A DNA stretch of 64,000 bases, from assembly GCA_009926935.1 (NCBI GenBank), contig RFNZ01000002.1:89473-153472 (forward strand). Direction: 5' to 3'. The stretch is from Pseudomonadota bacterium. GTDB taxonomy: Bacteria > Pseudomonadota > Alphaproteobacteria > Micavibrionales > UBA1664. Position numbers and translations under genes: made by a program. Positions 356-14,169 of the stretch are shown piece after piece. The notes beneath the pieces were generated by a model, which was not told the origin of the DNA, made no database searches, and was given only the letters and a program-made list of their open reading frames with translations. Numbering within the stretch: the stretch's first letter is position 1; every line of letters starts with the position of its first letter.

Positions 356-1378
356 CTACTGTACCACAGGCAGGGAGTTTGTCGCCATCAGTGTTCCGGC
401 CATAACCAGAACCCAGATAAGGGTGAACGGCAGAAATATCTTCCAGCCAAGGCGCATCAACTGGTCATATCGGTAACGCGGTAGCGTGGCCCTGACCCAG
501 ATATAGACAAACAAAATGAAAGAAACCTTGAGCACAAACCAGATAACACCGGGCACAAAGTCCAAAGCCTCGATGCCAAAAGGTGGTAGCCACCCACCCA
601 AAAACAGGATGGTGGCCATGGCCGACATCAAAATCATATTCGCGTATTCAGCCAAGAAGAAGAGCATGAACGCCGCCGCCGAATACTCGACCAAAAACCC
701 GCCTGAAAGCTCGGACTCGCCCTCAGGCAAGTCAAACGGTGCGCGGTTGCACTCAGCCAGAATGGAGACAACAAACACGACAAACATGGGCAAGAGCATG
801 ACCTGCACCCACCATGGGCGCGGCGCAGTCACGATTTCCGTAAGGTTAAGGGACCCAACACAAAGCAGCACGCACACAATCACAAGCCCCATCGAGACTT
901 CATACGAAACCATCTGTGCAGCCGAGCGCATCCCGCCCAAAAACGCGTATTTGGAGTTGGACGCCCAACCGGCCATCAAGACGCCGTAAACCCCCATCGA
1001 TGAAATCGCAAATAGGTACAAAATCCCGACGTTGATATCCGCAATCACCCAGCCCTCATTTACGGGGATGACCGACCACGCAATCATCGAAAGCAGCATC
1101 GTCAAAACCGGTGCCAGAATAAACACCACGCGGTGCGCGGCACTTGGTATGATGATCTCCTTCGAGAAAAGCTTGATGGCATCGGCAAATGTCTGGAGCA
1201 AGCCAAACGCGCCAACTGTCATAGGCCCTTGCCGTAGCTGCATCGCGCCCATCACTTTACGCTCGGCATACACAAGGTAGGCGACACCAATTAGCAATGG
1301 CACCACAAACGCCAGAATTTGCAGCACAATCAGCGCGCCCGGCAAACCATAATCATTGAGAAAAATCTGAAGAGTCAT
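356..1378 (-). CDS. nuoH: NADH-quinone oxidoreductase subunit H
   Basis: 340-aa polytopic membrane ORF. It carries the NuoH/ND1 signatures [16 protein letters not shown] and [18 protein letters not shown]-like ([19 protein letters not shown]). It lies directly upstream of nuoI. Confidence 0.95.
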
Positions 1379-1399
1379 GACAGTAGAGCGTTTTACACG

Positions 1400-2641
1400 T
1401 TATTTTTTGGCTTGAACAGCCTCCAAAAACTGGCGCGCAAGCACGGGGTACGCGTGGTTGATAAGCACATGGGCCTTGGCCCCGGCCCCCGCGGCATCAC
1501 GCTCGGCCGCGCTCATGGCCAATAGTTTTTCAATTGCCGCCGCCACATCCTTAGGGTTGCCGGTGGGTACGGATATGCCGCCCTCCGCTTCTTCCACCAT
1601 GTCGTTACCGGCACCGACAGCCATAATGATAGGCCGCGCGGCCATCATGTAATCGTAAATTTTGTTAAACGATACGCCGTGCTTATACACATCGTAGTGC
1701 TTGGCGCCCATATACAGCACATCCATCTGTTTTAAAAACCGCGGTACATGGCGCTTGGGTACGGGCCCGCACAACACAAAGGTGTCAGCGACACCAATCT
1801 CCTCGGCAAAGTCGGCCAAAGGCGCACGGTATGGCCCGTCACCAATCGTCATAAAGGCCACGGGCAAATCGCGCACATAACCGGCCGCTTCCACCATCAC
1901 TTCAAGCGCATTGGTATCGCCATGCGTACCGGCATAGCCCACAATCATGCGGCCCTGCGCTTTAAAGCGGTCAATCACGGCTTGCACAAGCGTATCAACA
2001 TGCCCCTCGCCCTCATCCGCCCACTCATCAGGGTCTATGCCGTTCGGCACGTGATGAAATTTGCCGGCCTGAAGCCCATAACCCTGCAAAAAACTCTCGG
2101 CCTTCGGCAAAACCGAAACCACAACATCGGCCACTTTACAAGCCTGCCGCTGCCCCCAACGCACAAGATGCATAAAGGGGTGTTCGGCACTCATGCCCCA
2201 AATCTGTACTGGGCTATCGGGCCAAAGCTCTGTCACTTCATATACAAGCTTCGCCTTATGATACCCCGCAATCATCTGCGCCGGCCCCATATCAAAAGGG
2301 TAACCTGACGACGCAATAACAATATCCGGTTTAAAACCGGCGCATACATGGCGCACACGCACATAAAGCTGCGCCACAAAGGCAAGGATATTCAAAATAC
2401 GGCCCCAGCCATTGCCTTTGAAAGCTGGCGTTTTAAAAAAGATGTATTCGATACCGTCAAACCCTTGGCGGTCGATAATCCCCCGCATGCGCGGCTGGCG
2501 TATGCGCGTATGGGCGTGAGATGCCGATATAATCCGCACACGGTGCCCCGCCCGCACCCACTGCCGTGCCAGGTAATACGGGCGGTACTCCATCCCCAGC
2601 ACGGGTGATCCTGCATTGTGGTCGATGTAAAGGATATTCAT
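1400..2641 (-). CDS. GT-B fold glycosyltransferase, family 4-like (WcaI/WbuB-like)
   Basis: ORF 1400-2656; the likely start is MNILYIDH at 2641. It has the N-terminal GT4 pattern ILYIDHNAGSP..YRPYYLARQW and a C-terminal EX7E-like MVEEAEGGISVP. Its stop is 21 nt before the nuoH ATG on the same strand. Confidence 0.7.
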   Translation of the reverse strand: MNILYIDHNAGSPVLGMEYRPYYLARQWVRAGHRVRIISASHAHTRIRQPRMRGIIDRQGFDGIEYIFFKTPAFKGNGWGRILNILAFVAQLYVRVRHVCAGFKPDIVIASSGYPFDMGPAQMIAGYHKAKLVYEVTELWPDSPVQIWGMSAEHPFMHLVRWGQRQACKVADVVVSVLPKAESFLQGYGLQAGKFHHVPNGIDPDEWADEGEGHVDTLVQAVIDRFKAQGRMIVGYAGTHGDTNALEVMVEAAGYVRDLPVAFMTIGDGPYRAPLADFAEEIGVADTFVLCGPVPKRHVPRFLKQMDVLYMGAKHYDVYKHGVSFNKIYDYMMAARPIIMAVGAGNDMVEEAEGGISVPTGNPKDVAAAIEKLLAMSAAERDAAGAGAKAHVLINHAYPVLARQFLEAVQAKK

Positions 2642-2757
2642 ACCCAAATCATACACGGATAGCCTTCAAGGCAAAATAGATACAAAAGCGCCCCTTGATT
2701 TCCTCTTGCAGGCAATACAACTCTCTCCCATCAACAATCTTTTAAAAAGGACATTCC

Positions 2758-3498
2758 ATGAAATCCCTCCAAGGTAAAACAGCCATCGTAACCGGCGGCA
2801 GCCGCGGTATTGGCGCTTCCATCGCCCAAAAACTCGCAGCCGATGGCGCAAACATCGCCCTCACCTACGGTAAATCCGGGGCCGAGGCCGATAAACTCGT
2901 AGCCAGCCTGACCGCTCTCGGCATCAAGGCGAAGGCCTATCAGGTAAACGCAGCCGACAAAGCGGCTATGGCAGCCCTGCCCGCGACCGTCCTCAAGGAT
3001 TTCGGCGGCATCGATATCATCGTCAACAACGCGGGCGTTTTCAGCATGGGCGCAATTGGCGACGTCAACGCCGATGAATATACAAGGGTCATGGGCACGA
3101 ATGTGGATGGCCCCTTTGCCCTCATCAACGCCGCAACCCCGCACCTTAAATCCGGCGCGCGCATCATCAACATTTCAAGCGGGCTAGGTGAACGTGCGGG
3201 CATGCCCGGTGTCAGCCTTTATACGGCATCAAAATTTGCGGTAACGGGTTTAACCAGAGCTTGGGCCAAGGATTTTGGTCCAAAAGGCATCTTGGTCAAC
3301 GCCATCTTGCCCGGCCCCATCGATACCGACATGAACCCAGAAACAAGCACTTTTGCCGATTTCCAACGCTCGCTCACGGCCCTCGGCCGCTACGGAAAGC
3401 CCGATGAAATTGGCAACGTCGCAGCCTTCTTGGCAGGCCCAGGCGCCAGCTACGTCACAGGCGCTCTCATCGCTGTTGACGGCGGCTGGAACGCTTAA
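2758..3498 (+). CDS. Short-chain dehydrogenase/reductase (FabG-like SDR)
   Basis: TGGSRGIG cofactor motif, NNAG motif and catalytic YTASK (YxxxK); 246 aa. It is divergent from the GT4 gene and convergent with nuoG, with 9 nt between the two stops. Confidence 0.85.
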   Translation: MKSLQGKTAIVTGGSRGIGASIAQKLAADGANIALTYGKSGAEADKLVASLTALGIKAKAYQVNAADKAAMAALPATVLKDFGGIDIIVNNAGVFSMGAIGDVNADEYTRVMGTNVDGPFALINAATPHLKSGARIINISSGLGERAGMPGVSLYTASKFAVTGLTRAWAKDFGPKGILVNAILPGPIDTDMNPETSTFADFQRSLTALGRYGKPDEIGNVAAFLAGPGASYVTGALIAVDGGWNA

Positions 3499-3507
3499 GC
3501 GGTTTTA

Positions 3508-5499
3508 TTACTCAGCCGCCATTGCCAGAGGCTTCACAAAAGCCTCTGTGCACTGCGCCATCGTGACAGATGCGCGGGAAATCACGCAAGTTTGGTAGTA
3601 ATTGGCAACGGCCGTACCAAACGGCTTGGCGTCCAGCGTGCCCGCCTTACCAAAATCGCTCCAGGCAACAGGCGTAATGGCGTCAACAGCACCAAAGGCC
3701 GGTACGTCTTTTGCCATCGCGGCGCGTAAATCAGCAAGGGTATTGAAGCTCAAAGGCTTGCCAATCACTTCCGAGAAAGCACGGATGATTTTCCAGTCTT
3801 CCTTAGCTTGCCCAACAGGGCTTGTTGCTTGGCGTGTTTGCTGTACGCGGCCTTCGGTGTTTACATACGTCGCGTTCTTTTCGGTGTAGGTCGCGGCAGG
3901 GAATATCACATCCGCGCGTGCAGCACCTGCATCCCCGTGGTGCCCTTGGTAAATCACAAATGCATCAGCGGGGATGGATTTCACAACATCCGTATCCACA
4001 TTGTTGAGCCACACGGCCTTAATGCCTTGCCACGAAAACTGGCCTTGCGGCGGTGTAAAACCAAGCATCAAAGCGCCCATGCGCCCTGCTGCGGTGTGAA
4101 GGTAGTTGAAACCATTCCACCCCTCGTTCACAACGGCCTTCGCGCGCACAGCCGCCAAAACGGCAGAGGCATCGGCCCGCTGCAACGCAGCCGTACCCAA
4201 AATCATCGCAGGGCGCTCGGCCTTGATGCTCAATTTCTCAAGCGCATCCACCCCCGCACCCAAATACGTATACGGATAGTTCAAATCAATTTTCTGGCCA
4301 ATCACGTAAACCGGCACGCGCTTGTTGTACCAAACCTTACGGATACGCGCATTGATCAGCGGCGCTTCCGTACGTGGGTTACAACCAACCAATACAACCG
4401 CATCCGCCTGTTCAAGCCCTGCAATCGTCGTGTTAAACCGCCATGATGCAGGCGCGGATACATCTATCGCAGCCCCGTCCACACGGCATTCCAGCATATT
4501 GCTGCCAAGCCCGTTCATGAATTTTTTAAGGGCGTAAACGCTTTCAGCGCAGGCAAGGTCACCTGCAAGCGCCGCCATTTGCGCACCCTGTAGGCCCTTT
4601 AGTTTATCGGCAGCAAAGGCAAACGCATCTTCCCAGCTGGCTTCAACCAGCTTGCCGTCGCGGCGCACATAAGGGCGATCAAGGCGCTGCCGCTTGAGGC
4701 CATCCATCGCAAGGCGCGATTTATCGGCAAGCCATGTCTCGTTAATCGCCTCGTTAAGCCGCGGCAAAATCCGCATCACCTCGTTGCCGCGCACATCAAC
4801 CCTGATGTTGCAGCCAACGGCGTCCATCACATCGACGCTTTCAACCTTGCGCAACTCCCATGGCCGCGCCGTAAATTCATAAGGCGCACTCGTGAGAGCC
4901 CCCACAGGGCATACATCAACAAGATTGCCCGACATCTCGGACGCCATCGTTTTTTCGATATACGTGCCAATCTCGACATCCTCGCCACGGTTGAGCAACC
5001 CAAGGTCATCAACCCCCGCAATTTCGGATGCAAAACGCACACAGCGCGTGCACTGGATGCACCGTGTCATGACCGTTTTAACAACGGGGCCGAGTTCTTT
5101 GTCTTTAACCGCGCGCTTGGCTTCAAAATAACGCGACCGGTCATAGCCGTACGCAACCGCTTGGTCCTGCAAATCGCACTCGCCGCCCTGGTCACAAATG
5201 GGGCAATCCAGCGGGTGGTTGATCAGCAAAAATTCCATGACGCCTTTACGGGCCTTATGCACAAGCTCGGAATCCGTCAAGACTTCCATGCCGTCAGCGG
5301 CCGCAAGGCAGCACGATGCTTGCGGCTTTGGCGGCCCAGGCTTTACCTCAACCAAGCACATGCGGCAGTTGCCAGGTACCGATAATTTATCGTGATAGCA
5401 AAAGCGGGGGATTTCGATCCCCATTTGCTCAGCCGCCTGCAACAGGTTGGTGCCCGGGGCGACTTCAATTTCGACATTATTGATTTTCAATTTTGGCAT
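3508..5499 (-). CDS. nuoG: NADH-quinone oxidoreductase subunit G (75 kDa Fe-S subunit)
   Basis: N-terminal 2Fe-2S/4Fe-4S cysteine clusters (CYHDKLSVPGNCRMCLVEV, HPLDCPICDQGGECDLQD, CIQCTRCVRF) followed by a molybdopterin-like domain. The ORF track starts at a GTG at 5511. I prefer the ATG at 5497-5499 (MPKLKINN) because the same GGTGAAAACA(A)TG junction precedes nuoD. Confidence 0.93.
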   Translation of the reverse strand: MPKLKINNVEIEVAPGTNLLQAAEQMGIEIPRFCYHDKLSVPGNCRMCLVEVKPGPPKPQASCCLAAADGMEVLTDSELVHKARKGVMEFLLINHPLDCPICDQGGECDLQDQAVAYGYDRSRYFEAKRAVKDKELGPVVKTVMTRCIQCTRCVRFASEIAGVDDLGLLNRGEDVEIGTYIEKTMASEMSGNLVDVCPVGALTSAPYEFTARPWELRKVESVDVMDAVGCNIRVDVRGNEVMRILPRLNEAINETWLADKSRLAMDGLKRQRLDRPYVRRDGKLVEASWEDAFAFAADKLKGLQGAQMAALAGDLACAESVYALKKFMNGLGSNMLECRVDGAAIDVSAPASWRFNTTIAGLEQADAVVLVGCNPRTEAPLINARIRKVWYNKRVPVYVIGQKIDLNYPYTYLGAGVDALEKLSIKAERPAMILGTAALQRADASAVLAAVRAKAVVNEGWNGFNYLHTAAGRMGALMLGFTPPQGQFSWQGIKAVWLNNVDTDVVKSIPADAFVIYQGHHGDAGAARADVIFPAATYTEKNATYVNTEGRVQQTRQATSPVGQAKEDWKIIRAFSEVIGKPLSFNTLADLRAAMAKDVPAFGAVDAITPVAWSDFGKAGTLDAKPFGTAVANYYQTCVISRASVTMAQCTEAFVKPLAMAAE

Positions 5500-5505
5500 T
5501 GTTTT

Positions 5506-5774
5506 CACCACTAAGACGCTAAGAGCGCTAAGAATTTATTTCAGTTTCTCTTCTTTCAAAATCTCATCAAGCAATTTTCCGCCCCTAGCAAAATTAAATT
5601 ATGGTCAGGAATATCATGAAAAAATATTTCAACTTGCTCTGGCTTGCGCCCAACCTCTTCTACAAAAACATCTGTAATTCTTTTCACAAGGCGGCGCTTA
5701 TCATCAATCGTCAAATCATCGCGGTGATTGATATGTATGACTGGCATTCTTAGCGTCCTTAGCGTCTTAGCGGT
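5506..5774. repeat. Palindromic CTAAG-repeat element, copy 1 (about 269 bp), in the nuoF-nuoG spacer; carries a small ORF
   Basis: The left arm caccactaagacgctaagagcgctaagaa (5506-5534) and the right arm ttcttagcgtccttagcgtcttagcggt (5747-5774) are inverted copies with 2-3 mismatches. The arms are the same as in the 10806-10920 element. Confidence 0.85.
5556..5747 (-). CDS. 4-oxalocrotonate tautomerase-like small protein (63 aa)
   Basis: This is the C-terminal part of track ORF 5556-6149, starting at the ATG at 5745-5747: MPVIHINHRDDLTIDDKRRLVKRITDVFVEEVGRKPEQVEIFFHDIPDHN.... It has an N-terminal Met-Pro and a beta-alpha-beta pattern typical of the tautomerase superfamily. It lies entirely between the element arms. 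No obvious SD is present. Confidence 0.5.
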   Translation of the reverse strand: MPVIHINHRDDLTIDDKRRLVKRITDVFVEEVGRKPEQVEIFFHDIPDHNLILLGAENCLMRF

Positions 5775-5781
5775 TAAAAAA

Positions 5782-7065
5782 TCAAGCCGCCTTGGCTTGC
5801 TTGCGGTAGTCCATGATGCGCTGCTCGACAACGGGGCGGAAGTGCCTGAAGAGCCCCTGTATCGGCCACGCCGAGGCATCGCCATGCGCGCAGATCGTCT
5901 GCCCCTCAATCTGCTTCGAGATATCAAGCAGCATATCGATTTCTTCAATCGTGGCATTGCCCGTGACCATACGCTGCATGATCTTGTACATCCACGCGGT
6001 ACCCTCGCGGCACGGCGTGCACTGCCCGCAGCTTTCATGCATGTAAAAATAGGATAGCCGCGCAATCGCGTACACGACATCCGTCGATTTATCCATGACA
6101 ATAAGCCCAGCCGTCCCAAGGCCCGATTGCACGGCGCGCAGGCTATCAAAATCCATCACAACCGTATCGCAAATCTCGCGTGGTAACAGCGGTGTCGATG
6201 ACCCACCAGGGATCACGCATAAAAGGTTATCCCACCCGCCGCGCACACCGCCCGCATGCTTCTCGATAAGTTCCCGCATGGGGATGCCCATCGCCTCTTC
6301 CACATTGCACGGCGCATTCACATGGCCGGAGATGCAGTAAAGTTTGGTACCCGTATTCTTGGCATCACGCCCAATACCCGCAAACCACTCCCCACCACGG
6401 CGCAGAATGGTTGGCACTGTCGCAATCGTCTCAACGTTGTTCACGGTCGTAGGGCAGCTATAAAGCCCCGCCATGGCCGGAAACGGCGGCTTGTTACGCG
6501 GCTGGCCTTTTTTACCTTCTAGCGATTCCAGTAACGCCGATTCCTCGCCGCAAATATACGCGCCGCCACCGCGGTGCAACTCCACATCAAAATCCCAACC
6601 GGACCCCGCCGCATTTTTACCAAGCAAACCCGCCGCCCGCGCTTCATGAATGGCTTTCCAGACATTCGAGCTTTCGTCAAAAAACTCGCCGCGAATGTAA
6701 ATATAAGCCTTATGCGCGCCAATCGCATGCGCCGCAATCAAAGCGCCTTCAAGCAACTTGTGCGGCTCATGGCGTAAAATCTCGCGGTCTTTGCAGGTGC
6801 CAGGCTCGCTTTCATCGGCATTGATAACCAGATAATGCGGCTTGTCTGATGGCTTCGGCATGAACGACCATTTCATACCGGTCGGGAACCCCGCGCCCCC
6901 GCGCCCACGCAGGCCTGATTTTTTCATCTCCTCGATAATCCAATCACGGCCCTTGGCAATGATGGCGGCTGTGTTATCCCAATCCCCGCGCTTTTTAGCA
7001 TCGGCAAGTGTGAACGAATTCCAGCCATAGAGGTTTGTAAATATGCGATCCTTGTCAGCGAGCAT
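5782..7065 (-). CDS. nuoF: NADH-quinone oxidoreductase subunit F (51 kDa, FMN/NADH-binding)
   Basis: [13 protein letters not shown] (FMN/NADH site), [12 protein letters not shown] 4Fe-4S motif, 427 aa. Confidence 0.96.
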
Positions 7066-7157
7066 AAGGGGTACCGGAAGATTGTTTTTTCACGACAATG
7101 TTATATAGGGCTTCGCGCAGGCTGTCGAGGCGGTTTCAGGGCTTTTCCAGCCGCTCT

Positions 7158-7559
7158 TTAGTCCAAAAACCTGTCTTTAAGGCTTGGTTCAGGCAGGGGG
7201 CACTGGTCCAGTTTTCCAAACCATGCATACCGCCGCTTGCCTATGAAATCATACGCGCAATCCCTAAGCGCCCTTGGAAGCATCCTCAAACCGTAAAAGA
7301 GTGCCCAGGGTAACCCTAAAAACCGCAGCGTTATTAGCACGGCATCGCTCTTGGCGTACACGCGCCCGCCGTGAATAAGGTAAACGGAATCACCTGCCTT
7401 GCCGCCGTACTCCTCAAGCAGGGCAACCCCTTTCGCTGACTGCTGTGAAACAAATTTAAACTTGGCCAGTTTGTCACGCCTCAGCACAAACCGTACGGAC
7501 GCATGACAAAGGTTACACACCCCGTCAAACAGCAAAATGGGCCCATTTTTGCTCACCAT
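7158..7559 (-). CDS. DCC-family (DUF393) thiol-disulfide oxidoreductase
   Basis: Likely start MVSKNGPILLFDGVCNLCHASVRFVLRRD at 7559. The FDGxCxLC redox motif is present. Its ATG is 1 nt after the HTTM stop (7553-7555). Confidence 0.75.
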   Translation of the reverse strand: MVSKNGPILLFDGVCNLCHASVRFVLRRDKLAKFKFVSQQSAKGVALLEEYGGKAGDSVYLIHGGRVYAKSDAVLITLRFLGLPWALFYGLRMLPRALRDCAYDFIGKRRYAWFGKLDQCPLPEPSLKDRFLD

Positions 7560-8908
7560 GTGCGGGCCTTCCAGTGCACAAAAGGTTCCTTGAGCGGTAA
7601 TAACCAAGTCTCAGGGGCAATCCCCCATGTTTCTTTTGTAAGGTCGGTGTCTGGGTCAACCAACAAGGCAGGCTTCCGTCCATTAAGGCTTACATGCACC
7701 TCACACTTGACCTCGGCATCCCGAACGCCCTTTTCGCGGCGCCATTTGTCATCGATATAATACGCAAACTGTAAAAGCGACTTCGCCTCAAGCGATACGG
7801 CCGCATACTGCCGCTGCGTCAGAAAGTCTTTAGGGTCAATCACCCACTCCTGTTTTGTATCGGGGTCGCGCACAAGGCAGCGTGAGCCATAAAATCTATG
7901 GTTATCCAACATCATGCGCCATGCAAAACCTTGGCCCTCGCCCGTCCAGCTTGTGTCTCCGGGGTAATAAAAGCCGCGCAGCGGCACTAGCGCTTGCACG
8001 GCAAGCCACACAGTCATCATGAGGATCACGAGTGTGCCCGGCACCTCCTGCTCGGCAACAGGCACCGGCGATACAGGCTTAAACCGCCCTAAAACCTTGA
8101 GCGGCCAGTCAGGGTCAAAAAACAGTGTCGTTGCCAAAATCGTAAGATACGGGAAGAAGTCGATGTAAAACGTATACGAGTTCAAAAGATGAAAGAGGCA
8201 GTAAACGCAAAACACCCAAACCCGCGTCCGTTTGAAAAACAGAAGCGGCGCACCAACCAGATGGAGGGCAATCGTGCCATAAGCACCAAGCGCCACAAAC
8301 CAGTCCTCAAAAACAAGGCGCCCAAAGATATGGTCGGGCAGCGATCTCAACATGCTGCCCAAAGGCTCGAGCATCAGCCAATCCGGCTTCAGCTTCATCA
8401 ACCCGGCATACAGCAGAACAATTTCTATCTGCATCCGGAAGGTCCAAAGACTCCACCCCGGCACGAGCGGCGTCCAGTTTTTCCGCCGCGCATCAAGCGA
8501 CCACGCGCGATGCATCGGCAAAAAAATCATCAAAATGGCAAAGAGAATAATCAGGTAATAGTGGTTGAGGTAAAACGCAGCTTCCGCCAGAAACGAATAC
8601 GCAAACAAAATAGTGAACACCGTAATCGCCACGCGGTAATAAAGCCCGAGCGCGATAAAAATTCCTGAAATTCCGGCAATCACAATGTGGGCCTTGAGCA
8701 TCCAAAGCGCGGGCCACGTCGGCACCCATTCAAAGTACGTGTACTTCAGATGAAATTCAGGCGTGATGAAATTTTCCAATTGAAACTGGTCATCGATCGA
8801 AAAATCGAGGATGCCGCCGATAACCACCATCACGCCAAAGACGATCCGGAAAAACGCCAGCGAGTAGCCACTGACAGGGGTTGCGAGTACTTCCTTAAGG
8901 GAACGCAA
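7553..8908 (-). CDS. HTTM-domain membrane protein (vitamin K-dependent gamma-carboxylase-like)
   Basis: 451 aa. The N-terminus reads SLAFFRIVFGVMVV, followed by multiple TM helices. The C-terminal soluble part reads WTGEGQGFAWRMMLDNH, as in HTTM/VKGC homologs. It starts 17 nt after the nuoE stop on the same strand. Confidence 0.75.
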   Translation of the reverse strand: MRSLKEVLATPVSGYSLAFFRIVFGVMVVIGGILDFSIDDQFQLENFITPEFHLKYTYFEWVPTWPALWMLKAHIVIAGISGIFIALGLYYRVAITVFTILFAYSFLAEAAFYLNHYYLIILFAILMIFLPMHRAWSLDARRKNWTPLVPGWSLWTFRMQIEIVLLYAGLMKLKPDWLMLEPLGSMLRSLPDHIFGRLVFEDWFVALGAYGTIALHLVGAPLLFFKRTRVWVFCVYCLFHLLNSYTFYIDFFPYLTILATTLFFDPDWPLKVLGRFKPVSPVPVAEQEVPGTLVILMMTVWLAVQALVPLRGFYYPGDTSWTGEGQGFAWRMMLDNHRFYGSRCLVRDPDTKQEWVIDPKDFLTQRQYAAVSLEAKSLLQFAYYIDDKWRREKGVRDAEVKCEVHVSLNGRKPALLVDPDTDLTKETWGIAPETWLLPLKEPFVHWKARTW

Positions 8909-8925
8909 AAAGCCTCCTGCGAAAG

Positions 8926-9546
8926 TTAGGCAACTCCTGCCTTTTTGGCTTCATCTTGAAGTGTTGTAGGGCCGGTGATGGCCATGGAGCATTTACGCCC
9001 GTTCTGCGGGCCCGCAGGCACTTCACGGCCTGCCGATAAAGCATCGATGATTTCTTTCATGCGCTCTGGCGTCAGGTCTTCGTAATAGCTGTCGTTAATT
9101 TGTACCATCGGGGCATTCACGCACGCGCCAAGGCACTCAACTTCAGTCAAAGTAAACTTCCCGTCGGACGTCGTTTCCCCGATATGGATTCCAAGTTTTT
9201 CCTCGCAAGCTTTCACAATATCGGCCGAGCCGCGCAGCCAGCACGGCGTTGTCGTGCAGCACTGTATGTGGTTTTTGCCAATCGGGCGCAGGATAAACAT
9301 CGAGTAAAAAGTAGCCACTTCAAACACCTTGATGCGCGGCATTTCAAGAATCTTTGCAATCTCTTCCATCGCAACTTCAGGTATCCACTGCCCTTCGGTC
9401 TCGCGCATTACCAAATCCAAAAGCGGCATAACCGCCGATTGTTTGCGTTCTTCCGGGTAACGCGAAAGAATATCCGCGACCTTCGTCATATCTTTGAAGG
9501 CGAAGCTGGTCGGCTGTTGTTCCTTGGGGGCGACAATAGGCTTCAT
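8926..9546 (-). CDS. nuoE: NADH-quinone oxidoreductase subunit E (24 kDa, 2Fe-2S)
   Basis: Thioredoxin-like 2Fe-2S pattern [10 protein letters not shown]...CLGACVNAP. It overlaps the nuoD stop by 4 nt. Confidence 0.95.
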
Positions 9547-10799
9547 CGGTCAATTTCTCCAAAAACGATATCCATCGATCCAATGATCGAAACGGCGTCA
9601 GCCAACATGTGCCCGCGGGACATAAAGTCGAGGCCAGCCAAATGCGCAAAACCCGGCGCCCTTATGTGGCACTTATACGGGCGGTTTGTGTCGTCCGATA
9701 ACAAATACACACCAAACTCGCCCTTGGGGGCTTCCACGGCCGTATAGGTTTCACCGGCAGGTACGTGATACCCTTCGGTAAACAATTTGAAGTGGTGGAT
9801 CAGCGCTTCCATCGAGCGTTTCATTTCCTCGCGCGGCGGCGGCACAATCTTGTAATCATCCACTTTAACGGCCCCACCCGGCATTTCCTTGAGGCACTGG
9901 CGCATGATTTTGAGCGACTGGCGCATTTCTTCCATCCGCACCACATAGCGCGCATAACAATCGCCTGTCTTGCCAACGGGTATATCAAAATCCATTTTCT
10001 CGTAAACTTCATAAGGCTGCGATTTACGCAAATCCCACGCAACGCCGGATGCCCTGAGCATAGGGCCAGTAAAGCCCCAGTCAAAGGCTTGCTGCTTGCT
10101 GACAACGCCAATCCCAACCGTGCGCTGCTTGAACACGCGGTTTTCAGACAGCAAGCCTTCAAGGTCATCGATAACCTTGCCGAAATTTTCAGTCCAGTCC
10201 CACATGTCTTCGGCGAGACCCTTGGGCATATCCATCGCAACACCGCCGGGGCGTATGTAATTGGCATGCAGGCGCGCGCCGCAAACACGGTCGTAGAATT
10301 CCATGCCCTTCTCGCGTTCTTCAAAACCCCAAAGCGCAGGCGTAATTGCACCAACATCCAGCGCATAGGTCGTAATATTAAGGATGTGGTTTAAAATGCG
10401 TGTCAGTTCCAAAAACAGCACGCGCACATACTGCGCGCGCGGGGGCGGCGTAATGCCCAACAGCTTTTCAACAGCCAAGGCAAAACAATGCTCTTGGTTC
10501 ATGGGTGAAACATAATCAAGCCGGTCGAAATACGGCAGCGCCTGTAAATAGGTTTTGTGCTCAATCAGCTTTTCGGTGCCGCGGTGTAATAGCCCGATAT
10601 GCGGGTCAGCGCGCTCCACCACCTCGCCGTTCATCTCCAAAATCAGGCGCAAAACGCCGTGCGCCGCTGGGTGCTGCGGGCCAAAGTTGATTGTATACGG
10701 CTTGATTTTCTCGTCATCGCTCGTGGCAACAATCTGCCCCGTTGAATCATCAAGCGTGACCAGCTGTTTCGTAATTGTATGCGTTGCATTTGAACTCAT
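9543..10799 (-). CDS. nuoD: NADH-quinone oxidoreductase subunit D (49 kDa)
   Basis: [27 protein letters not shown], and a C-terminal DIVFGEIDR. Confidence 0.96.
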
Positions 10800-10805
10800 G
10801 TTTTC

Positions 10806-10920
10806 ACCGCTAAGACGCTAAGTACGCTAAGAAAATTTTATACCATTCATTATTAATCCACCTCGAAAATCTAACTAGCTAAAAACAAATTCTTCTTAGC
10901 GTACTTAGCGTCTTAGCGGT
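10806..10920. repeat. Palindromic CTAAG-repeat element, copy 2 (115 bp, no long ORF), in the nuoC-nuoD spacer
   Basis: accgctaagacgctaagtacgctaagaa at the left end and its exact reverse complement ttcttagcgtacttagcgtcttagcggt at the right end form a perfect 28-bp terminal inverted repeat. The arms are built from CTAAGnCG units. Confidence 0.9.
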
Positions 10921-10928
10921 AAAAAAAA

Positions 10929-11612
10929 CTAACCCCCTCCACCACGCACACGCTCGGCGGCATTGGTGCGGTAATCAACGGTGCCCACCTTCTGCTTTAC
11001 GGCTTTTTCGTCGCCCGGTAATTGCACGGTTGTCATGGCTTCCCACGGGCTGAGGTTATCGAAGGATCTAAAATCCTGCATCAGCTTCACGGGTTCATAG
11101 ACCACGCGGGCTTGCGCCTCGTCGTAGCGCAGCTCGACAAATCCAGTCAGCGGAAAATCTTTGCGCAGCGGATGCCCTTCAAAACCATAATCGGTCAGAA
11201 TGCGGCGGAGGTCTTCATTGCCCTCAAAAGCAATGCCGTACATATCCCACACTTCACGCTCAAGCCAGCCAGCGCTTGAGTAAACAGGCGTAACAGACGG
11301 CACGGGCGTATCTTCATCCGTCATAATTTTAACGCGGATGCGCAAATTGTGCCGCAGCGAAAGCAGCTGGTACACAACCTCAAACCGGTCGGCTTTGGTT
11401 GGCCAATCAACGGCTGTAATATCCATCAGCTGCACGCAAGCCGTTTCAACATGGTCGCGCAAATCGGTCAGCACGCGCACAATTTCGGCACGTTTAGCAT
11501 GCACCACCAGTTCATCCTGCGCGAAAGACGTGCCCGAAACGCCATAGGCAAATGCTTCGGCAATTTTGGCGGCCAGTGCCGCTTTTTTTTCGGACGGGGC
11601 TTTGCGGCTCAT
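10929..11612 (-). CDS. nuoC: NADH-quinone oxidoreductase subunit C (30 kDa)
   Basis: [40 protein letters not shown] signature. ATGA overlap with the nuoB stop. Confidence 0.95.
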
Positions 11613-12184
11613 CGCACAATCCTCGTATCTTCACGCTGGATTTTTTTCTGGAGCTGCAAAATACCATACACAAGCGCCTCAGCCGTGGGCGGGCAACCCG
11701 GCACGTAAATATCGACCGGCACAATACGGTCGCATCCGCGCACAACCGAATAGGAATAGTGGTAGTATCCCCCGCCATTGGCGCAGCTGCCCATGCTAAT
11801 CACCCAGCGCGGCTCTGGCATCTGGTCATACACACGGCGCAAGGCCGGCGCCATTTTGTTGGTGAGCGTGCCAGCGACTATCATCACATCGGATTGACGG
11901 GGTGAAGGGCGTGGAATAACGCCAAAACGGTCAAGGTCATAGCGCGACATATAGGAATGAATCATCTCAACCGCGCAGCATGCAAGGCCAAATGTCATCG
12001 GCCACATCGAGCCCGTGCGCGCCCAGTCAAACAGCTTGTCGACTTGCGTTAGCACAAAACCCTTGTCAGTCACTTCCTGCGCGATGCGGGCAACAAACTC
12101 ATCCTGCTTCACGGCAGGAACAGGGATGTTTGGTTGCTTTAAAGGAGCGGCAGGCGCCGCAATGATATTCTTTTCATGAGACAT
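11609..12184 (-). CDS. nuoB: NADH-quinone oxidoreductase subunit B (20 kDa, N2 cluster)
   Basis: [19 protein letters not shown] and VPGCPP cysteine motifs. Confidence 0.96.
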
Positions 12185-12187
12185 GGA

Positions 12188-12589
12188 TTATTCCCAATCA
12201 AGGGCGCCTTTCTTCCATTCATAGATAAAACCGATGGTGAGGATACCAAGGAAAACGACCATCGACCAGAAGCCGAATAAACCTATATCCGAAAGGGTAA
12301 TTGCCCAGGGGAACAGGAACGCGATTTCAAGGTCGAAGATAATGAAAAGAATGGAAACCAGATAAAACCGGACATCGAATTTGTGGCGCGCATCCTCAAA
12401 AGCATCAAAGCCGCACTCATAAGGGGCGAGCTTGTTGGCGTCAGGCCGCTGCTTGCCCGAAAAATACGACCCCACAAGCATCACAAGCGCAAGGCCCGCG
12501 GCAATCCCGATAAAAATCAGGATAGGCAGGTATTCGGCCAGAAAGTGGTTGGAGGCAAGAAACGTATCGAGTGTATTGGAGCCAGTCAC
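12188..12589 (-). CDS. nuoA: NADH-quinone oxidoreductase subunit A
   Basis: 133-aa protein with 3 TM helices, carrying PYECGF and [11 protein letters not shown] motifs. It is the first gene of the nuo cluster. Confidence 0.93.
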
Positions 12590-12616: not shown

Positions 12617-12693
12617 TGGCGCGAGTGACGGGACTTGAACCCGCGGCCTCCTGCGTGACAGGCAGGCGCTCTAACCAACTGAGCTACACCCGC
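12617..12693 (-). tRNA. tRNA-Asp (GTC)
   Basis: The reverse complement gcgggtgtagctcagttggttagagcgcctgcctgtcacgcaggaggccgcgggttcaagtcccgtcactcgcgcca folds as a cloverleaf. The anticodon loop is ctGTCac. CCA is encoded. Confidence 0.92.
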
Positions 12694-12804: not shown

Positions 12805-13911
12805 CTAGGCCGCCCTAGGCATATAAGGCTGCCCCAAAGCCTCAGCCACTGCCGGGTGCATAATTTTACCCTCATGCACGTTGAGGCCCATGGCCAGATG
12901 CGGGTCGTCGGCCAGTGCCTGCTTCCAGCCCTTGCTGGCAAGCGCCAGTACAAAAGGCAACGTCGCATTATTGAGCGCCGCGGTCGATGACTGCGGGTAA
13001 GCCCCCGGCATGTTAGCGACGCAGTAATGGATGATGCCGTCCACTTCGTAGGTTGGTTCTTGGTGGGTCGTGATTTTGCTGGTTTCAAAGCAGCCACCTT
13101 GGTCAATCGCAATATCAACAACAACCGCGCCCTGTTTCATGGTATTAAGCTGCGCACGGCTCACCAGCCTTGGGGCATTAGCGCCGGGCACCAGCACCGC
13201 ACCAATCACCATATCGGCTTTGGCAACTTCCGCATCAATCGCAGCTTTGCTCACGGCAAGCACACGGGCGCTCGCGCCAAAAAACTCATCTAAAAAGCGT
13301 ATGCGTTCGCCGTTTTTTTCAAGGATGGTCACATCAGCCCCCATACCAACAGCAATGCGCGCCGCATTAAACCCGGATACGCCACCACCAAGCACGGTGA
13401 CATGCGCGGGCTCAACCCCCGGCACACCGGATATCAGGCGCCCAAGGCCCCCGCGGTGCTTCTGGAGGGCCGTCGCCCCCATGATGGGCGCCATACGCCC
13501 TGCAATTTCAGACATAGGCGCAAGCAATGGCAAACCGCCCTTGGCGCTGGTCACGGTTTCATAGGCAATGGCCGTGCAGCCACTATCCATCAAGCCCTTG
13601 GCTTGTTTCGGGTCCGGTGCCAGATGCAGATAGGTAAACAGCACCTGCCCGCGGCGGAGCTGCTTCCATTCCGGTTCCTGCGGCTCTTTCACTTTGACAA
13701 TCATATCGGCCTTGGCAAACACGGCATTGGCGCTGTCGACAATTTCGGCTCCTGCGGCGCGATAATCGTCATCACTGGCAAGTATCCCCTGCCCTGCCCC
13801 GCTCTGGACCAGCACCTTATGCCCTTGGTGAACACACTCAGCCACACTGGCAGGGTTCAGACCGACACGATTTTCCTGTGCTTTGATTTCCTTGGGTACG
13901 CCAATGAGCAT
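12805..13911 (-). CDS. ald: Alanine dehydrogenase
   Basis: The true start is MLIGVPKEIKAQENRVGL at 13911; the track ORF extends to 14052 through a tRNA-like repeat. NAD-binding segment VTVLGGGVSGFNAARIAVGMGADVTILE. 368 aa. Confidence 0.9.
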   Translation of the reverse strand: MLIGVPKEIKAQENRVGLNPASVAECVHQGHKVLVQSGAGQGILASDDDYRAAGAEIVDSANAVFAKADMIVKVKEPQEPEWKQLRRGQVLFTYLHLAPDPKQAKGLMDSGCTAIAYETVTSAKGGLPLLAPMSEIAGRMAPIMGATALQKHRGGLGRLISGVPGVEPAHVTVLGGGVSGFNAARIAVGMGADVTILEKNGERIRFLDEFFGASARVLAVSKAAIDAEVAKADMVIGAVLVPGANAPRLVSRAQLNTMKQGAVVVDIAIDQGGCFETSKITTHQEPTYEVDGIIHYCVANMPGAYPQSSTAALNNATLPFVLALASKGWKQALADDPHLAMGLNVHEGKIMHPAVAEALGQPYMPRAA

Positions 13912-14013
13912 GAAAATATCTCCCGAAATAGATGAAGCAGGAACTATAGAACTTTTTTGTATAGATGCACGTGGCAACGCCGCATTTTTTGGAGAATAAG
14001 ATTTAGAGTATAG

Positions 14014-14033
14014 AAATGGTGGGTGATGAGGGG
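14014..14033 (-). repeat. Duplicated 3' end of tRNA-Val (20-nt exact copy)
   Basis: aaatggtgggtgatgagggg occurs at 14014-14033 and again at 14092-14111. The second copy covers the last 17 nt of tRNA-Val including CCA, plus 3 flanking nt. Confidence 0.85.
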
Positions 14034-14094
14034 CTAGGGCCGTGCGCAGCACGGCAAATAATAATCGAACCCAATGCAGCTGCTTAAAGAAAAA

Positions 14095-14169
14095 TGGTGG
14101 GTGATGAGGGGTTCGAACCCCCGACCCTCTCGGTGTAAACGAGATGCTCTTCCGCTGAGCTAATCACCC
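14095..14169 (-). tRNA. tRNA-Val (TAC)
   Basis: Reverse complement gggtgattagctcagcggaagagcatctcgtttacaccgagagggtcgggggttcgaacccctcatcacccacca. Anticodon loop ttTACac. The acceptor stem gggtgat/atcaccc pairs. Confidence 0.9.

What the first reader, a model, noticed from the sequence alone, without database searches (positions are those of the whole stretch)
7158..8908. HTTM (vitamin-K-carboxylase-like) membrane protein plus DCC thiol oxidoreductase embedded between nuoE and nuoF
**Seen in the sequence.**
- A 451-aa HTTM-type polytopic protein (SLAFFRIVFG..., ...GFAWRMMLDNH) starts 17 nt after the nuoE stop.
- Its stop (7553-7555) is 1 nt from the ATG (7557-7559) of a DUF393/DCC protein carrying FDGVCNLC.
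- That gene ends 92 nt before nuoF.
- All of these genes are on the same strand, and I see no convincing terminator hairpin between them.

**Established knowledge.**
- The canonical nuoA-N operon has nothing between E and F.
- HTTM is the membrane core of the eukaryotic gamma-glutamyl carboxylase, which consumes a reduced naphthoquinone and O2 and makes a quinone epoxide.
- DCC proteins are predicted thiol-disulfide oxidoreductases.
- The bacterial HTTM function is unknown.

**Inference.** This may be a two-gene, quinol-dependent oxygenase or carboxylase-like module with its own thiol reductase, playing a VKOR-like recycling role. It would be co-expressed with, and fed by, the quinone-reducing Complex I. 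I consider this the best candidate in the window for an undescribed system.
Basis: partly seen in the sequence, partly recalled or inferred. Interest (0 to 1): 0.8.

Follow-up and report, generated by a model that had tools for sequence, protein, structure and literature searches.

The report
GGCX-like enzyme and DCC partner inside nuo
An uncultured alphaproteobacterium carries, between two Complex I genes, a bacterial cousin of the human vitamin-K carboxylase with its catalytic site intact plus a small thioredoxin-like partner; the two proteins form a recurrent, uncharacterised pair in many bacteria, but their position inside the Complex I operon looks like a lineage-specific insertion rather than a functional link.

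Summary
On the minus strand, nuoE is followed after 17 nt by a 451-aa HTTM + VKGC-lumenal-domain protein. A 133-aa DCC/DUF393 gene overlaps that protein's stop by 7 nt (ATGGTGA), and nuoF follows 92 nt later. No terminator or promoter signal lies between these genes.

The large protein is a full-length structural homologue of human GGCX (TM-score about 0.8). Its quinol-site and CO2-pocket residues are invariant, but it lacks the Glu-anchoring Tyr and the distal lumenal and C-terminal parts.

HTTM–DCC is a genuine module:
- A DCC gene sits directly adjacent in 15 of 80 species-representative loci, almost all Pseudomonadota.
- Two different DCC subfamilies have been recruited.
- Natural fusions exist, and they place DCC on the cytoplasmic side.

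The nuo location is confined to one small uncultured clade (six instances, monophyletic). It is absent from relatives with about 90% identical NuoF and from 0 of 80 other loci. In this clade, nuo junctions collect varied unrelated cargo, including a MITE-like element in this window.

Verdict: the pair is an uncharacterised quinol-dependent oxygenase or carboxylase with a cytoplasmic thiol-redox partner. It is co-transcribed with Complex I in this lineage, probably by hitch-hiking. The claimed dedicated coupling to Complex I is not supported.

The parts
8926..9546 (-). nuoE (206 aa), the upstream neighbour
   Evidence: Pfam 2Fe-2S_thioredx 8.8e-59. Identical to NBX65731.1.
8913..8918 (-). Shine-Dalgarno AGGAGG, 4 nt upstream of the TTG start of the HTTM gene
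   Evidence: Read directly from the sequence.
7553..8908 (-). GGCX-like membrane enzyme of 451 aa. The HTTM domain covers residues 11-268, followed by a ninth TM helix and a VKGC lumenal-type periplasmic domain (293-441). The catalytic Lys is K172.
   Evidence: Pfam. PDB phmmer 9e-28. AF2 model with pLDDT 94.1. Foldseek TM-score 0.76-0.84 to human GGCX. Active-site columns. Identical to NBX65730.1, annotated 'hypothetical protein'.
7553..7559 (-). ATGGTGA overlap of the DCC start codon with the HTTM stop codon (translational coupling)
   Evidence: The same overlap occurs in L001, L004, L106 and L107.
7158..7559 (-). DCC1-like/DUF393 (YuxK-type) thioredoxin-fold protein of 133 aa, with motif D12-G-V-C15-N-L-C18 and a third conserved Cys at C120
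   Evidence: Pfam DCC1-like 8e-27. Invariant columns in 54 homologues. AF2 model with pLDDT 83.5, thioredoxin-like topology and CxxC at the N-terminus of helix 1. Only weak thioredoxin, glutaredoxin and GST fold hits.
7066..7157 (-). 92-nt DCC-nuoF spacer with no terminator, promoter or stable structure
   Evidence: (z = +1.13).
5782..7065 (-). nuoF (427 aa), the downstream neighbour
   Evidence: Pfam Complex1_51K, SLBB and NADH_4Fe-4S.
9543..12589 (-). nuoA-nuoD upstream part of the cluster, preceded by tRNA-Asp at 12617-12693
   Evidence: Synteny with L001.
356..5779 (-). Downstream part of the interrupted cluster: a TIR element carrying a tautomerase-like ORF (5502-5779), nuoG (3508-5511), orf137 (2731-3144), a GT4 glycosyltransferase (1400-2656) and nuoH (356-1378)

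Best explanation
The locus encodes a self-contained two-protein membrane redox module that was inserted once into the nuoE/nuoF junction of an ancestor of a small uncultured Rhodospirillales-like clade. It has since been inherited with, and co-transcribed with, the Complex I genes.

Component 1 is a minimal bacterial GGCX with nine TM helices and a small periplasmic domain.
- By homology, K172 (human K218) deprotonates a membrane quinol. The quinol reacts with O2 to give a strongly basic oxygenated intermediate and ends as a quinone epoxide or quinone.
- That base activates a second substrate next to a retained CO2 pocket (F252, H116, N115). Carboxylation, or another base-driven modification, is therefore likely.
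- The substrate is probably not a propeptide-bearing Gla protein. The Glu-anchoring Tyr395 is replaced, and nothing corresponds to the distal lumenal and C-terminal parts of the human enzyme.

Component 2 is a cytoplasmic thioredoxin-fold CxxC protein that docks on the cytoplasmic face of the enzyme. It most likely passes reducing equivalents from the cytoplasmic thiol pool to the oxidised quinone or epoxide, or otherwise to the enzyme's redox cycle. This would make it a functional analogue of VKOR, though not a homologue.

The nuo position gives co-expression with the quinol-producing Complex I. It is best explained as operon hitch-hiking in a lineage whose nuo junctions readily accept cargo.

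Shown here: family membership, fold, residue conservation, pair linkage, and phyletic distribution.
Inferred: chemistry, substrate, role of DCC, and co-transcription.
For: Family and fold:
- Pfam hits and PDB sequence match to GGCX.
- High-confidence model with a full-length fold match to 16 GGCX structures at E about 1e-21.
- The equivalents of N159, H160, K218, W223, F286, N290, F299, W390, W399 and M401 are invariant in 50 of 50 homologues. Their roles are taken from PMC12647623.

Pair linkage:
- A DCC gene is directly adjacent in 15 of 80 species-representative loci.
- Two DCC subfamilies are involved: FDGVCNLC, co-directional downstream, and YDGECPFC, divergent upstream. They are only 22-33% identical to each other.
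- An N-terminal DCC-HTTM fusion exists, P0097. A C-terminal fusion is reported in Melghirimyces (bioRxiv 10.64898/2026.08.19.745780).
- The 7-nt start/stop overlap is conserved.

Cytoplasmic placement of DCC:
- DCC has no signal peptide or TM helix and joins directly to the N-terminus of TM1 in P0097.
- The nine-TM topology is shared with GGCX.

Single old insertion:
- The nuo-embedded proteins form one clade with 100/100 bootstrap.
- GC and GC3 equal those of the nuo genes.

Hitch-hiking:
- None of 80 other loci is near nuo.
- The pair is absent in relatives with about 90% identical NuoF.
- Other junctions carry variable cargo, and a TIR element sits in two nuo junctions here.

Co-transcription: no promoter, terminator or structure at the junctions.
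Against: - No activity, substrate or physical complex has been shown for any HTTM-DCC pair.
- D263, which hydrogen-bonds vitamin K in the human enzyme, is His in 45 of 50 homologues. Y395 is His or Gln. The chemistry may therefore differ.
- The family has no conserved Cys, and DCC would sit across the membrane from the active site. Direct electron delivery would need quinone flip-flop or a cytoplasmic access path that I could not examine.
- The window's DCC is a generic YuxK-type protein. It is as similar (about 50%) to standalone DCCs, such as one in a planctomycete with no HTTM neighbour, as it is to HTTM-adjacent ones.
- 65 of 80 HTTM loci lack an adjacent DCC, and some have imelysin instead.
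- The arrangement persists from 79% to 96% NuoF identity. This could reflect selection for co-expression with Complex I rather than neutrality.
Confidence: 0.5

Rival explanations
1. One reading: the pair is a dedicated Complex I satellite. A quinol-consuming oxygenase or carboxylase is selected to sit in nuo because it is fed by Complex I-derived quinol, and DCC acts as its VKOR-like recycler.
For: - The genes share a strand with tight junctions and no terminator or promoter.
- The nuoE-HTTM-DCC-nuoF order is conserved in six instances, spanning NuoF identities of 79-96%.
- Composition is fully ameliorated.
- The catalytic quinol site is intact.
Against: - None of 80 loci from other species has nuo within 6 kb, while the HTTM-DCC pairing persists there.
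- The closest complete genome (CP060260.1, NuoF 89.9%) and L093 have nuoE abutting nuoF.
- nuo junctions in this clade hold unrelated cargo, including reverse-strand genes and a MITE-like element.
- Quinol diffuses in the membrane, so gene adjacency is not needed for supply.
Confidence: 0.15
2. The module acts on Complex I itself. DCC would be a thiol reductase for a Complex I subunit or assembly intermediate, as plant mitochondrial DCC1 reduces the CA2 subunit. The HTTM protein would serve as its membrane anchor or co-factor.
For: - Plant DCC1 is mitochondrial, binds and reduces the Complex I subunit CA2, and its loss lowers Complex I activity (Zhang et al. 2018, as summarised in PMC7598583).
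- The gene lies inside nuo in an alphaproteobacterium.
Against: - The DCC-HTTM linkage is mostly found far from nuo.
- The HTTM active site is under strict conservation, which is not expected of a mere anchor.
- No gamma-carbonic-anhydrase subunit gene is seen in the cluster.
- Close relatives build Complex I without the pair.
Confidence: 0.07
3. The HTTM enzyme modifies a lipid or small molecule, or matures or exports a peptide, without carboxylation. This would resemble the epoxidase-only giant-virus VKE-desaturase modules or B. subtilis SdpB. DCC would be a regulator or chaperone rather than an electron donor.
For: - Giant-virus GGCX-like proteins keep K218 but are proposed to act only as epoxidases coupled to lipid desaturation (PMC13486548).
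- The Glu-anchoring Tyr395 is not conserved here.
- No substrate gene is conserved next to the pair.
- From my own knowledge: the Leptospira orthologue was reported to epoxidise vitamin K without carboxylating, and SdpB is an HTTM protein needed for SDP toxin production.
Against: - Unlike the viral proteins, this one keeps the region equivalent to human 374-418 and the CO2-pocket residues F299 and H160.
- The CxxC, plus a third Cys, is invariant in DCC, which argues for redox chemistry.
Confidence: 0.2
4. The pair is neutral or decaying cargo with no current function in this genome.
For: - HTTM and DCC diverge much faster than the Nuo subunits: 62% against 96% identity to the nearest relative.
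- The pair has been lost in some close relatives.
Against: - Both ORFs are intact, with a strong Shine-Dalgarno sequence.
- All catalytic columns are invariant.
- The structural model is of high confidence.
- The arrangement has been kept since a common ancestor at 79% NuoF identity.
Confidence: 0.03

Closest known systems
[quoted passage not shown]
   Same: - It has the same fold over about 460 residues (TM-score 0.76-0.84, 24-26% identity) and nine TM helices.
- The equivalents of the catalytic K218, of N159, H160, W223, F286, N290, F299 and M401, and of the 374-418 region are present.
   Different: - It is 451 aa against 758 aa and ends at about human residue 515. Nothing corresponds to the distal lumenal (jelly-roll clamp) and C-terminal domains that form the propeptide cleft.
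- D263 is replaced by His, and Y395 by Gln (His in most of the family).
- No Gla-type substrate is known.
- Its partner is DCC rather than VKOR.
MloH, the Streptomyces vitamin K-dependent carboxylase orthologue (malonomycin biosynthesis; Law et al. 2018, cited in PMC12647623 and in bioRxiv 10.64898/2026.08.19.745780)
   Same: It is a bacterial GGCX-family enzyme with a non-Gla substrate, which shows that bacterial members can be true carboxylases.
   Different: MloH lies in a secondary-metabolite gene cluster and acts on a PKS-NRPS intermediate. Here there is no biosynthetic cluster, only a DCC partner. Sequence relatedness to MloH was not tested.
HTTM + DCC1-like fusion protein with a DUF5819 partner in Melghirimyces thermohalophilus (bioRxiv 10.64898/2026.08.19.745780)
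   Same: The same two domains are physically linked, and together with the partner the complex recapitulates the GGCX architecture.
   Different: There the DCC is fused C-terminally and the periplasmic domain is a separate DUF5819 protein. Here the periplasmic domain is fused and DCC is a separate gene. No function was assigned there either.
Giant-virus VKOR / gamma-carboxylase-like epoxidase / desaturase module (PMC13486548)
   Same: It is a GGCX-like enzyme retaining K218, genetically linked to a thiol-based quinone-recycling partner. It sets a precedent for non-carboxylating use.
   Different: The viral enzymes are truncated (they lack residues 374-418), the partner is a true VKOR, and a desaturase is fused. 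None of these applies here.
Plant DCC1 (Arabidopsis mitochondrial DxxCxxC thioredoxin acting on Complex I subunit CA2; Zhang et al. 2018 via PMC7598583)
   Same: It belongs to the same Pfam family and has the same DxxCxxC motif. It is the only DCC protein with a described target, and that target is Complex I.
   Different: It is eukaryotic and has no HTTM partner. Orthology to the window protein was not tested.
Interrupted nuo/nqo clusters of Alphaproteobacteria (Rhodobacter capsulatus URFs such as urf7, PMC9036352; Paracoccus denitrificans URFs, from my own knowledge)
   Same: Non-nuo ORFs are interspersed between nuo genes on the same strand.
   Different: To my knowledge none of those URFs is an HTTM or DCC protein. 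The cargo differs between lineages.

Membership tests
GGCX / HTTM-VKGC family | HTTM domain and VKGC lumenal domain score above the Pfam gathering thresholds | tested here: met
   HTTM 203.7 bits (cut-off 27.7) and VKGC_lumenal_dom 118.3 bits (cut-off 27.7).
GGCX / HTTM-VKGC family | Overall fold matches solved GGCX structures | tested here: met
   AF2 pLDDT 94.1. Foldseek E 1.5e-21 and TMq 0.81-0.84.
GGCX / HTTM-VKGC family | Catalytic base Lys218 and the quinol-pocket residues W223, F286 and M401 | tested here: met
   K172, W177, F239 and M332 are invariant in 50 of 50 homologues.
GGCX / HTTM-VKGC family | Asp263, which hydrogen-bonds vitamin K and forms a relay with Lys218 | tested here: not met
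   His216 occupies this position. It is His in 45 of 50 homologues and Asp in 5.
Protein gamma-glutamyl carboxylase (function) | CO2 pocket (F299, H160) and the carboxylate-binding N159/H160 | tested here: met
   F252, H116 and N115 are invariant.
Protein gamma-glutamyl carboxylase (function) | Glu-anchoring Tyr395 | tested here: not met
   Gln326 occupies this position. It is His in 43 of 50 homologues and Tyr in only 4.
Protein gamma-glutamyl carboxylase (function) | Propeptide-binding cleft formed by two lumenal clamps plus the C-terminal domain | tested here: not met
   The protein ends at the equivalent of about human residue 515. The model shows only a three-stranded sheet plus helices after TM9. 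About 200 GGCX residues remain unaligned. Assigning the retained part to 'clamp A' is my inference from the description in PMC12647623.
Protein gamma-glutamyl carboxylase (function) | Quinol- and O2-dependent epoxidase or carboxylase activity | not testable with these tools
   This needs biochemistry.
DCC1-like / DUF393 thiol-disulfide oxidoreductase family | Pfam PF04134 scores above threshold and the DxxCxxC motif is present | tested here: met
   95.2 bits (cut-off 27.8). D12, C15 and C18 are invariant in 54 sequences.
DCC1-like / DUF393 thiol-disulfide oxidoreductase family | Thioredoxin-like fold with the CxxC at the N-terminus of helix 1 | tested here: met
   The AF2 model (pLDDT 83.5) has beta-alpha-beta-alpha-beta-beta-alpha topology with C15 and C18 at the start of helix 16-28. 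All fold hits are thioredoxin-fold proteins, but they are weak (E 0.05-0.2). No solved homologue exists.
DCC1-like / DUF393 thiol-disulfide oxidoreductase family | Thiol-disulfide exchange activity | not testable with these tools
   From the sources I read, activity is documented only for plant DCC1 (PMC7598583).
VKOR-type quinone/epoxide reductase (the role proposed for DCC) | Homology to the VKOR/DsbB four-helix membrane family | tested here: not met
   The only Pfam hit is DCC1-like. The protein is a soluble thioredoxin-type fold with no clear TM helix. Any VKOR-like role would be analogy, not membership.
VKOR-type quinone/epoxide reductase (the role proposed for DCC) | Redox cysteines lie on the same membrane face as the carboxylase active site | tested here: inconclusive
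   The fusion topology (P0097 N-terminal fusion; Melghirimyces fusion after TM8) implies a cytoplasmic DCC and a periplasmic active site. No complex model could be examined.
Complex I operon-encoded accessory component | Consistently encoded within nuo across related genomes | tested here: not met
   There are six instances in one clade. The pair is absent from relatives with about 90% identical NuoF, and none of 80 other species has it near nuo.

The most novel reading that the evidence does not exclude
Bacteria may run a non-VKOR quinone-epoxide cycle. A minimal GGCX would use respiratory quinol and O2 at the periplasmic face to drive carboxylation, or another base-requiring modification, of an unknown envelope or small-molecule substrate. 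The structurally uncharacterised DCC family would be a new class of cytoplasmic quinone or quinone-epoxide reductase that closes the cycle. In this clade the module would be wired transcriptionally to Complex I, so that quinol supply and consumption are co-regulated.
Probability: 0.2. Interest if true: 0.8.

Novelty: new variant of a known kind. Interest (0 to 1): 0.5.

Why it matters
Bacterial GGCX homologues are numerous: about 2,600 clusters at 50% identity score E<=1e-30. They keep the complete catalytic apparatus of the human enzyme, yet apart from MloH their substrates are unknown.

The DCC family is equally widespread. It has no solved structure and only one described target, in plants. 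Recognising HTTM-DCC as a recurrent module gives both families a concrete, testable partner hypothesis:
- The pair occurs as adjacent or overlapping genes, and occasionally as a fusion.
- Cultured hosts carry it, including Ferrimonas balearica, Paracoccus caeni, Paracoccus onubensis and Aquamicrobium terrae.

If DCC recycles the oxidised quinone, this would be a second, VKOR-independent solution to the vitamin K cycle.

The nuo-embedded version adds a natural co-expression setting. It also illustrates how alphaproteobacterial nuo junctions accumulate cargo, which is a caution against reading function from operon position alone.

Tried and rejected
- NCBIfam gave no hit for either protein, and PADLOC gave none, so there is no defence-system assignment.
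- The first literature search on HTTM/DUF393 was swamped by unrelated uses of 'HTTM'.
- Searches for a description of nuo-embedded HTTM or DCC genes, or of nuo URFs, found only the R. capsulatus urf7 paper.
- Context look-up of a standalone Firmicute DCC (P0202) failed.
- The metagenome scan added only one further close relative, on the same contig family as P0003.
- The type-B DCC search showed that fusions are rare and most members are standalone proteins of about 135 aa. Fusion frequency therefore cannot be used as strong statistical support.
- I looked for terminal repeats flanking HTTM-DCC as a sign of mobility and found none. The inverted-repeat element in the window flanks other junctions and has no exact match in the relatives' loci.
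- Recent horizontal transfer of the pair is rejected on composition.
- I considered that DCC services a disulfide in the HTTM protein. This is rejected because no Cys is conserved in the family.
Full report
**What is there**

All genes of the finding lie on the minus strand.
- nuoE (8926-9546) ends with TAA.
- Seventeen nucleotides later a 451-aa ORF (7553-8908) starts with TTG. An AGGAGG Shine-Dalgarno sequence at 8913-8918 precedes it.
- The ATG of a 133-aa ORF (7158-7559) lies upstream of that ORF's stop codon.
- nuoF (5782-7065) starts 92 nt after the small gene.
- Both proteins exist verbatim in GenBank, from a 795-kb contig of an uncultured 'Proteobacteria bacterium' MAG. They are annotated 'hypothetical protein' (NBX65730.1) and 'DUF393 domain-containing protein' (NBX65729.1).

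Profile searches confirm the families:
- HTTM 5e-60, VKGC lumenal domain 3.8e-34 and DCC1-like 8e-27.
- NCBIfam and PADLOC have no model for either protein.

The junctions carry no isolating signal:
- No sigma70-like promoter was found in 5300-9800, and no terminator-like site lies in either junction.
- The 92-nt spacer is no more structured than shuffled sequence (z = +1.13).
- No Rfam family matches there.

Co-transcription with nuo is therefore plausible, but it remains an inference.

**The large protein is a minimal GGCX**

phmmer finds human gamma-glutamyl carboxylase at 9e-28, over human residues 50-321 and 368-515. An AlphaFold2 model built on 50 homologues is very confident (pLDDT 94.1, pTM 0.91). 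It has nine TM helices and a small periplasmic domain of three strands plus helices. Foldseek returns 16 GGCX cryo-EM structures and nothing else (E down to 1.5e-21, TM-score 0.76-0.84, about 460 aligned columns).

I mapped the residues that the structural literature defines (PMC12647623; PMC13486548).
- The equivalents of N159, H160, K218 (the catalytic base), W223, F286, N290, F299, W390, W399 and M401 are invariant in 50 of 50 bacterial homologues.
- D263 is His in 45 of 50.
- The Glu-anchoring Y395 is His in 43 of 50, and Gln in the window protein.
- The family has no conserved cysteine.
- The protein stops at the equivalent of about human residue 515. Nothing corresponds to the distal lumenal and C-terminal parts that, in the human enzyme, complete the propeptide-binding cleft. 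Assigning the retained part to 'clamp A' is my inference.

The quinol-deprotonation site and CO2 pocket are therefore intact. The apparatus for recognising propeptide-bearing Gla substrates is not.

The family is large. A profile search finds 10,118 cluster representatives at E<=1e-3 and 2,627 at E<=1e-30.

**The small protein is a thioredoxin-fold DCC**

- D12, C15 and C18 (the DxxCxxC motif) are invariant and C120 is nearly invariant in 54 homologues.
- The AF2 model (pLDDT 83.5) shows beta-alpha-beta-alpha-beta-beta-alpha with the CxxC at the N-terminus of helix 1, followed by extra C-terminal helices.
- Fold hits are exclusively thioredoxin, glutaredoxin, PDI and GST-N proteins, but they are weak (E 0.05-0.2).
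- No DCC-family member has a solved structure.
- The window protein is a generic YuxK-type DCC. It is about 50% identical both to HTTM-adjacent DCCs of Gammaproteobacteria and to standalone DCCs of unrelated phyla. One of these, in a planctomycete, has no HTTM neighbour.

**HTTM and DCC form a module**

Among 80 species-representative loci, taken from at least 594 genomic hits, 15 have a DCC gene immediately next to the HTTM gene. All are Pseudomonadota except one unclassified MAG.

Two DCC subfamilies are involved, and they are only 22-33% identical to each other:
- the FDGVCNLC type, co-directional and downstream, as in this window and in Ferrimonas balearica;
- the YDGECPFC type, usually divergent and upstream, as in Paracoccus caeni.

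One protein (P0097) is a natural DCC-HTTM-lumenal fusion. A 2026 preprint reports an HTTM-DCC C-terminal fusion in a Firmicute, whose periplasmic domain is a separate DUF5819 protein. Fusions are nevertheless rare.

Both fusion geometries place DCC on the cytoplasmic side. One joins DCC to the cytoplasmic N-terminus before TM1, and the other joins it after TM8. This is the side opposite the periplasmic active site.

Outside Pseudomonadota the commonest co-directional neighbour is an imelysin (8 of 44 neighbours scanned), not DCC.

**The nuo position is lineage-specific**

nuoE-HTTM-DCC-nuoF recurs in five other metagenomic relatives: P0001 to P0005, with HTTM identity of 47-64% in the homology search, or 49-64% by pairwise global alignment. 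These proteins, together with P0006 whose context is unknown, form one clade with 100/100 NJ bootstrap. GC and GC3 of the pair equal those of the nuo genes. This indicates one old insertion that was inherited vertically.

Three results argue against a dedicated link to Complex I:
- None of the 80 other loci has nuoD, nuoE, nuoF or nuoG within 6 kb.
- Relatives whose NuoF is 89.5-89.9% identical have nuoE abutting nuoF. These include the complete genome CP060260.1. They are as close as L001 (88.1%) and closer than L003 (78.7%), both of which carry the pair. The pair was therefore lost there without replacement.
- nuo junctions in this clade hold many unrelated genes:
  - acyltransferase_3, UbiA and reverse-strand ORFs at the D/E junction;
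  - PDDEXK_3 or small ORFs at the F/G junction;
  - a conserved GT4 glycosyltransferase plus variable genes at the G/H junction.

Interrupted nuo clusters are already known in Alphaproteobacteria (R. capsulatus urf7, PMC9036352; Paracoccus URFs, from my own knowledge).

In this window two further junctions hold copies of a MITE-like element with 34-39-nt terminal inverted repeats. One copy carries an AT-rich tautomerase-like ORF.

**Interpretation**

The best-supported reading is a two-protein redox module. One component is a GGCX-family quinol- and O2-dependent enzyme acting at the periplasmic face on an unknown substrate that is not a Gla protein. The other is a cytoplasmic CxxC partner. In this clade the module has hitch-hiked in the Complex I operon.

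DCC may recycle the oxidised quinone or epoxide, as a functional analogue of VKOR. This is attractive but unproven, and it has to accommodate the opposite-face topology.

The plant DCC1-Complex I connection is an intriguing coincidence. I rank it low, because most HTTM-DCC pairs are unrelated to nuo.

Its central inference, coupling to Complex I, is not supported by comparative genomics.

Noticed in passing
window 10801-10925 (nuoC/nuoD spacer) and 5502-5779 (nuoF/nuoG spacer): There are two copies of a MITE-like element with 34-39-nt terminal inverted repeats (TTTTCACCGCTAAGACGCTAAGnnCGCTAAGAA). The short copy folds into a hairpin of -62 kcal/mol (z = -10.5). The 64-kb window has only four TIR matches (0.32 expected), and all four lie in nuo junctions. 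Each element ends in ...GGTGAAAAC immediately before the ATG of the downstream nuo gene. No exact match occurs in the relatives' loci.
   Followed up: partly
window 5556-5747 (-): A 63-aa 4-oxalocrotonate-tautomerase-like ORF (Pfam Tautomerase 9e-10) sits inside the longer TIR element. Its GC of 0.385 and GC3 of 0.36 contrast with about 0.53 and 0.6 for its neighbours, so it looks like recently acquired cargo of the element.
   Followed up: partly
window 5497-5511: The listed GTG start of nuoG (5511) lies inside the TIR arm. The real start is probably the ATG at 5499 (MPKLKINN...).
   Followed up: no
window 5783-5799 (-): A terminator-like hairpin (CAAGCCAAGGCGGCTTG followed by a T-run) overlaps the nuoF stop codon, just before the TIR element. 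It could be an attenuator inside the cluster.
   Followed up: no
window 1400-2656 (-); L001, L004, L090-L093: A GT4-family glycosyltransferase between nuoG and nuoH is conserved in every relative examined, including those that lack HTTM-DCC. It is the most stable non-nuo cargo of this clade's cluster. The 137-aa ORF at 2731-3144 has no Pfam hit.
   Followed up: partly
L093 2990-3835 (-); L107 257-1072 (-): A UbiA-family prenyltransferase is encoded on the opposite strand between nuoD and nuoE in some relatives. In L107 it sits next to the nuoE-HTTM-DCC unit. A quinone-biosynthesis-type enzyme at this spot may be worth a look.
   Followed up: no
L003 6147-10241: In the most distant nuo-embedded relative (GCA_964624435.1) the cluster is broken after nuoF. 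A 121-aa ORF follows, and then purQ/purL-like genes on the opposite strand.
   Followed up: no
L026, L028, L042, L054 and other non-proteobacterial loci (alignment A2): Outside Pseudomonadota, bacterial GGCX-like genes are often preceded by a co-directional imelysin (Peptidase_M75) gene (8 of 44 neighbours). In Granulosicoccaceae they are followed by a Mem_trans (PF03547) permease (4 of 44). These are alternative partners to DCC.
   Followed up: partly
window 7158-8908 compared with L004: HTTM and DCC evolve much faster than their nuo neighbours. Against the nearest relative they are 62% identical, while NuoF is 95.8% and NuoG is 89.7% identical.
   Followed up: partly
window 12617-12693 and 12805-14169: tRNA-Asp lies 27 nt upstream of nuoA. 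An alanine-dehydrogenase/PNT-family gene sits between tRNA-Val and tRNA-Asp, and it is conserved upstream of nuoA in L001.
   Followed up: no
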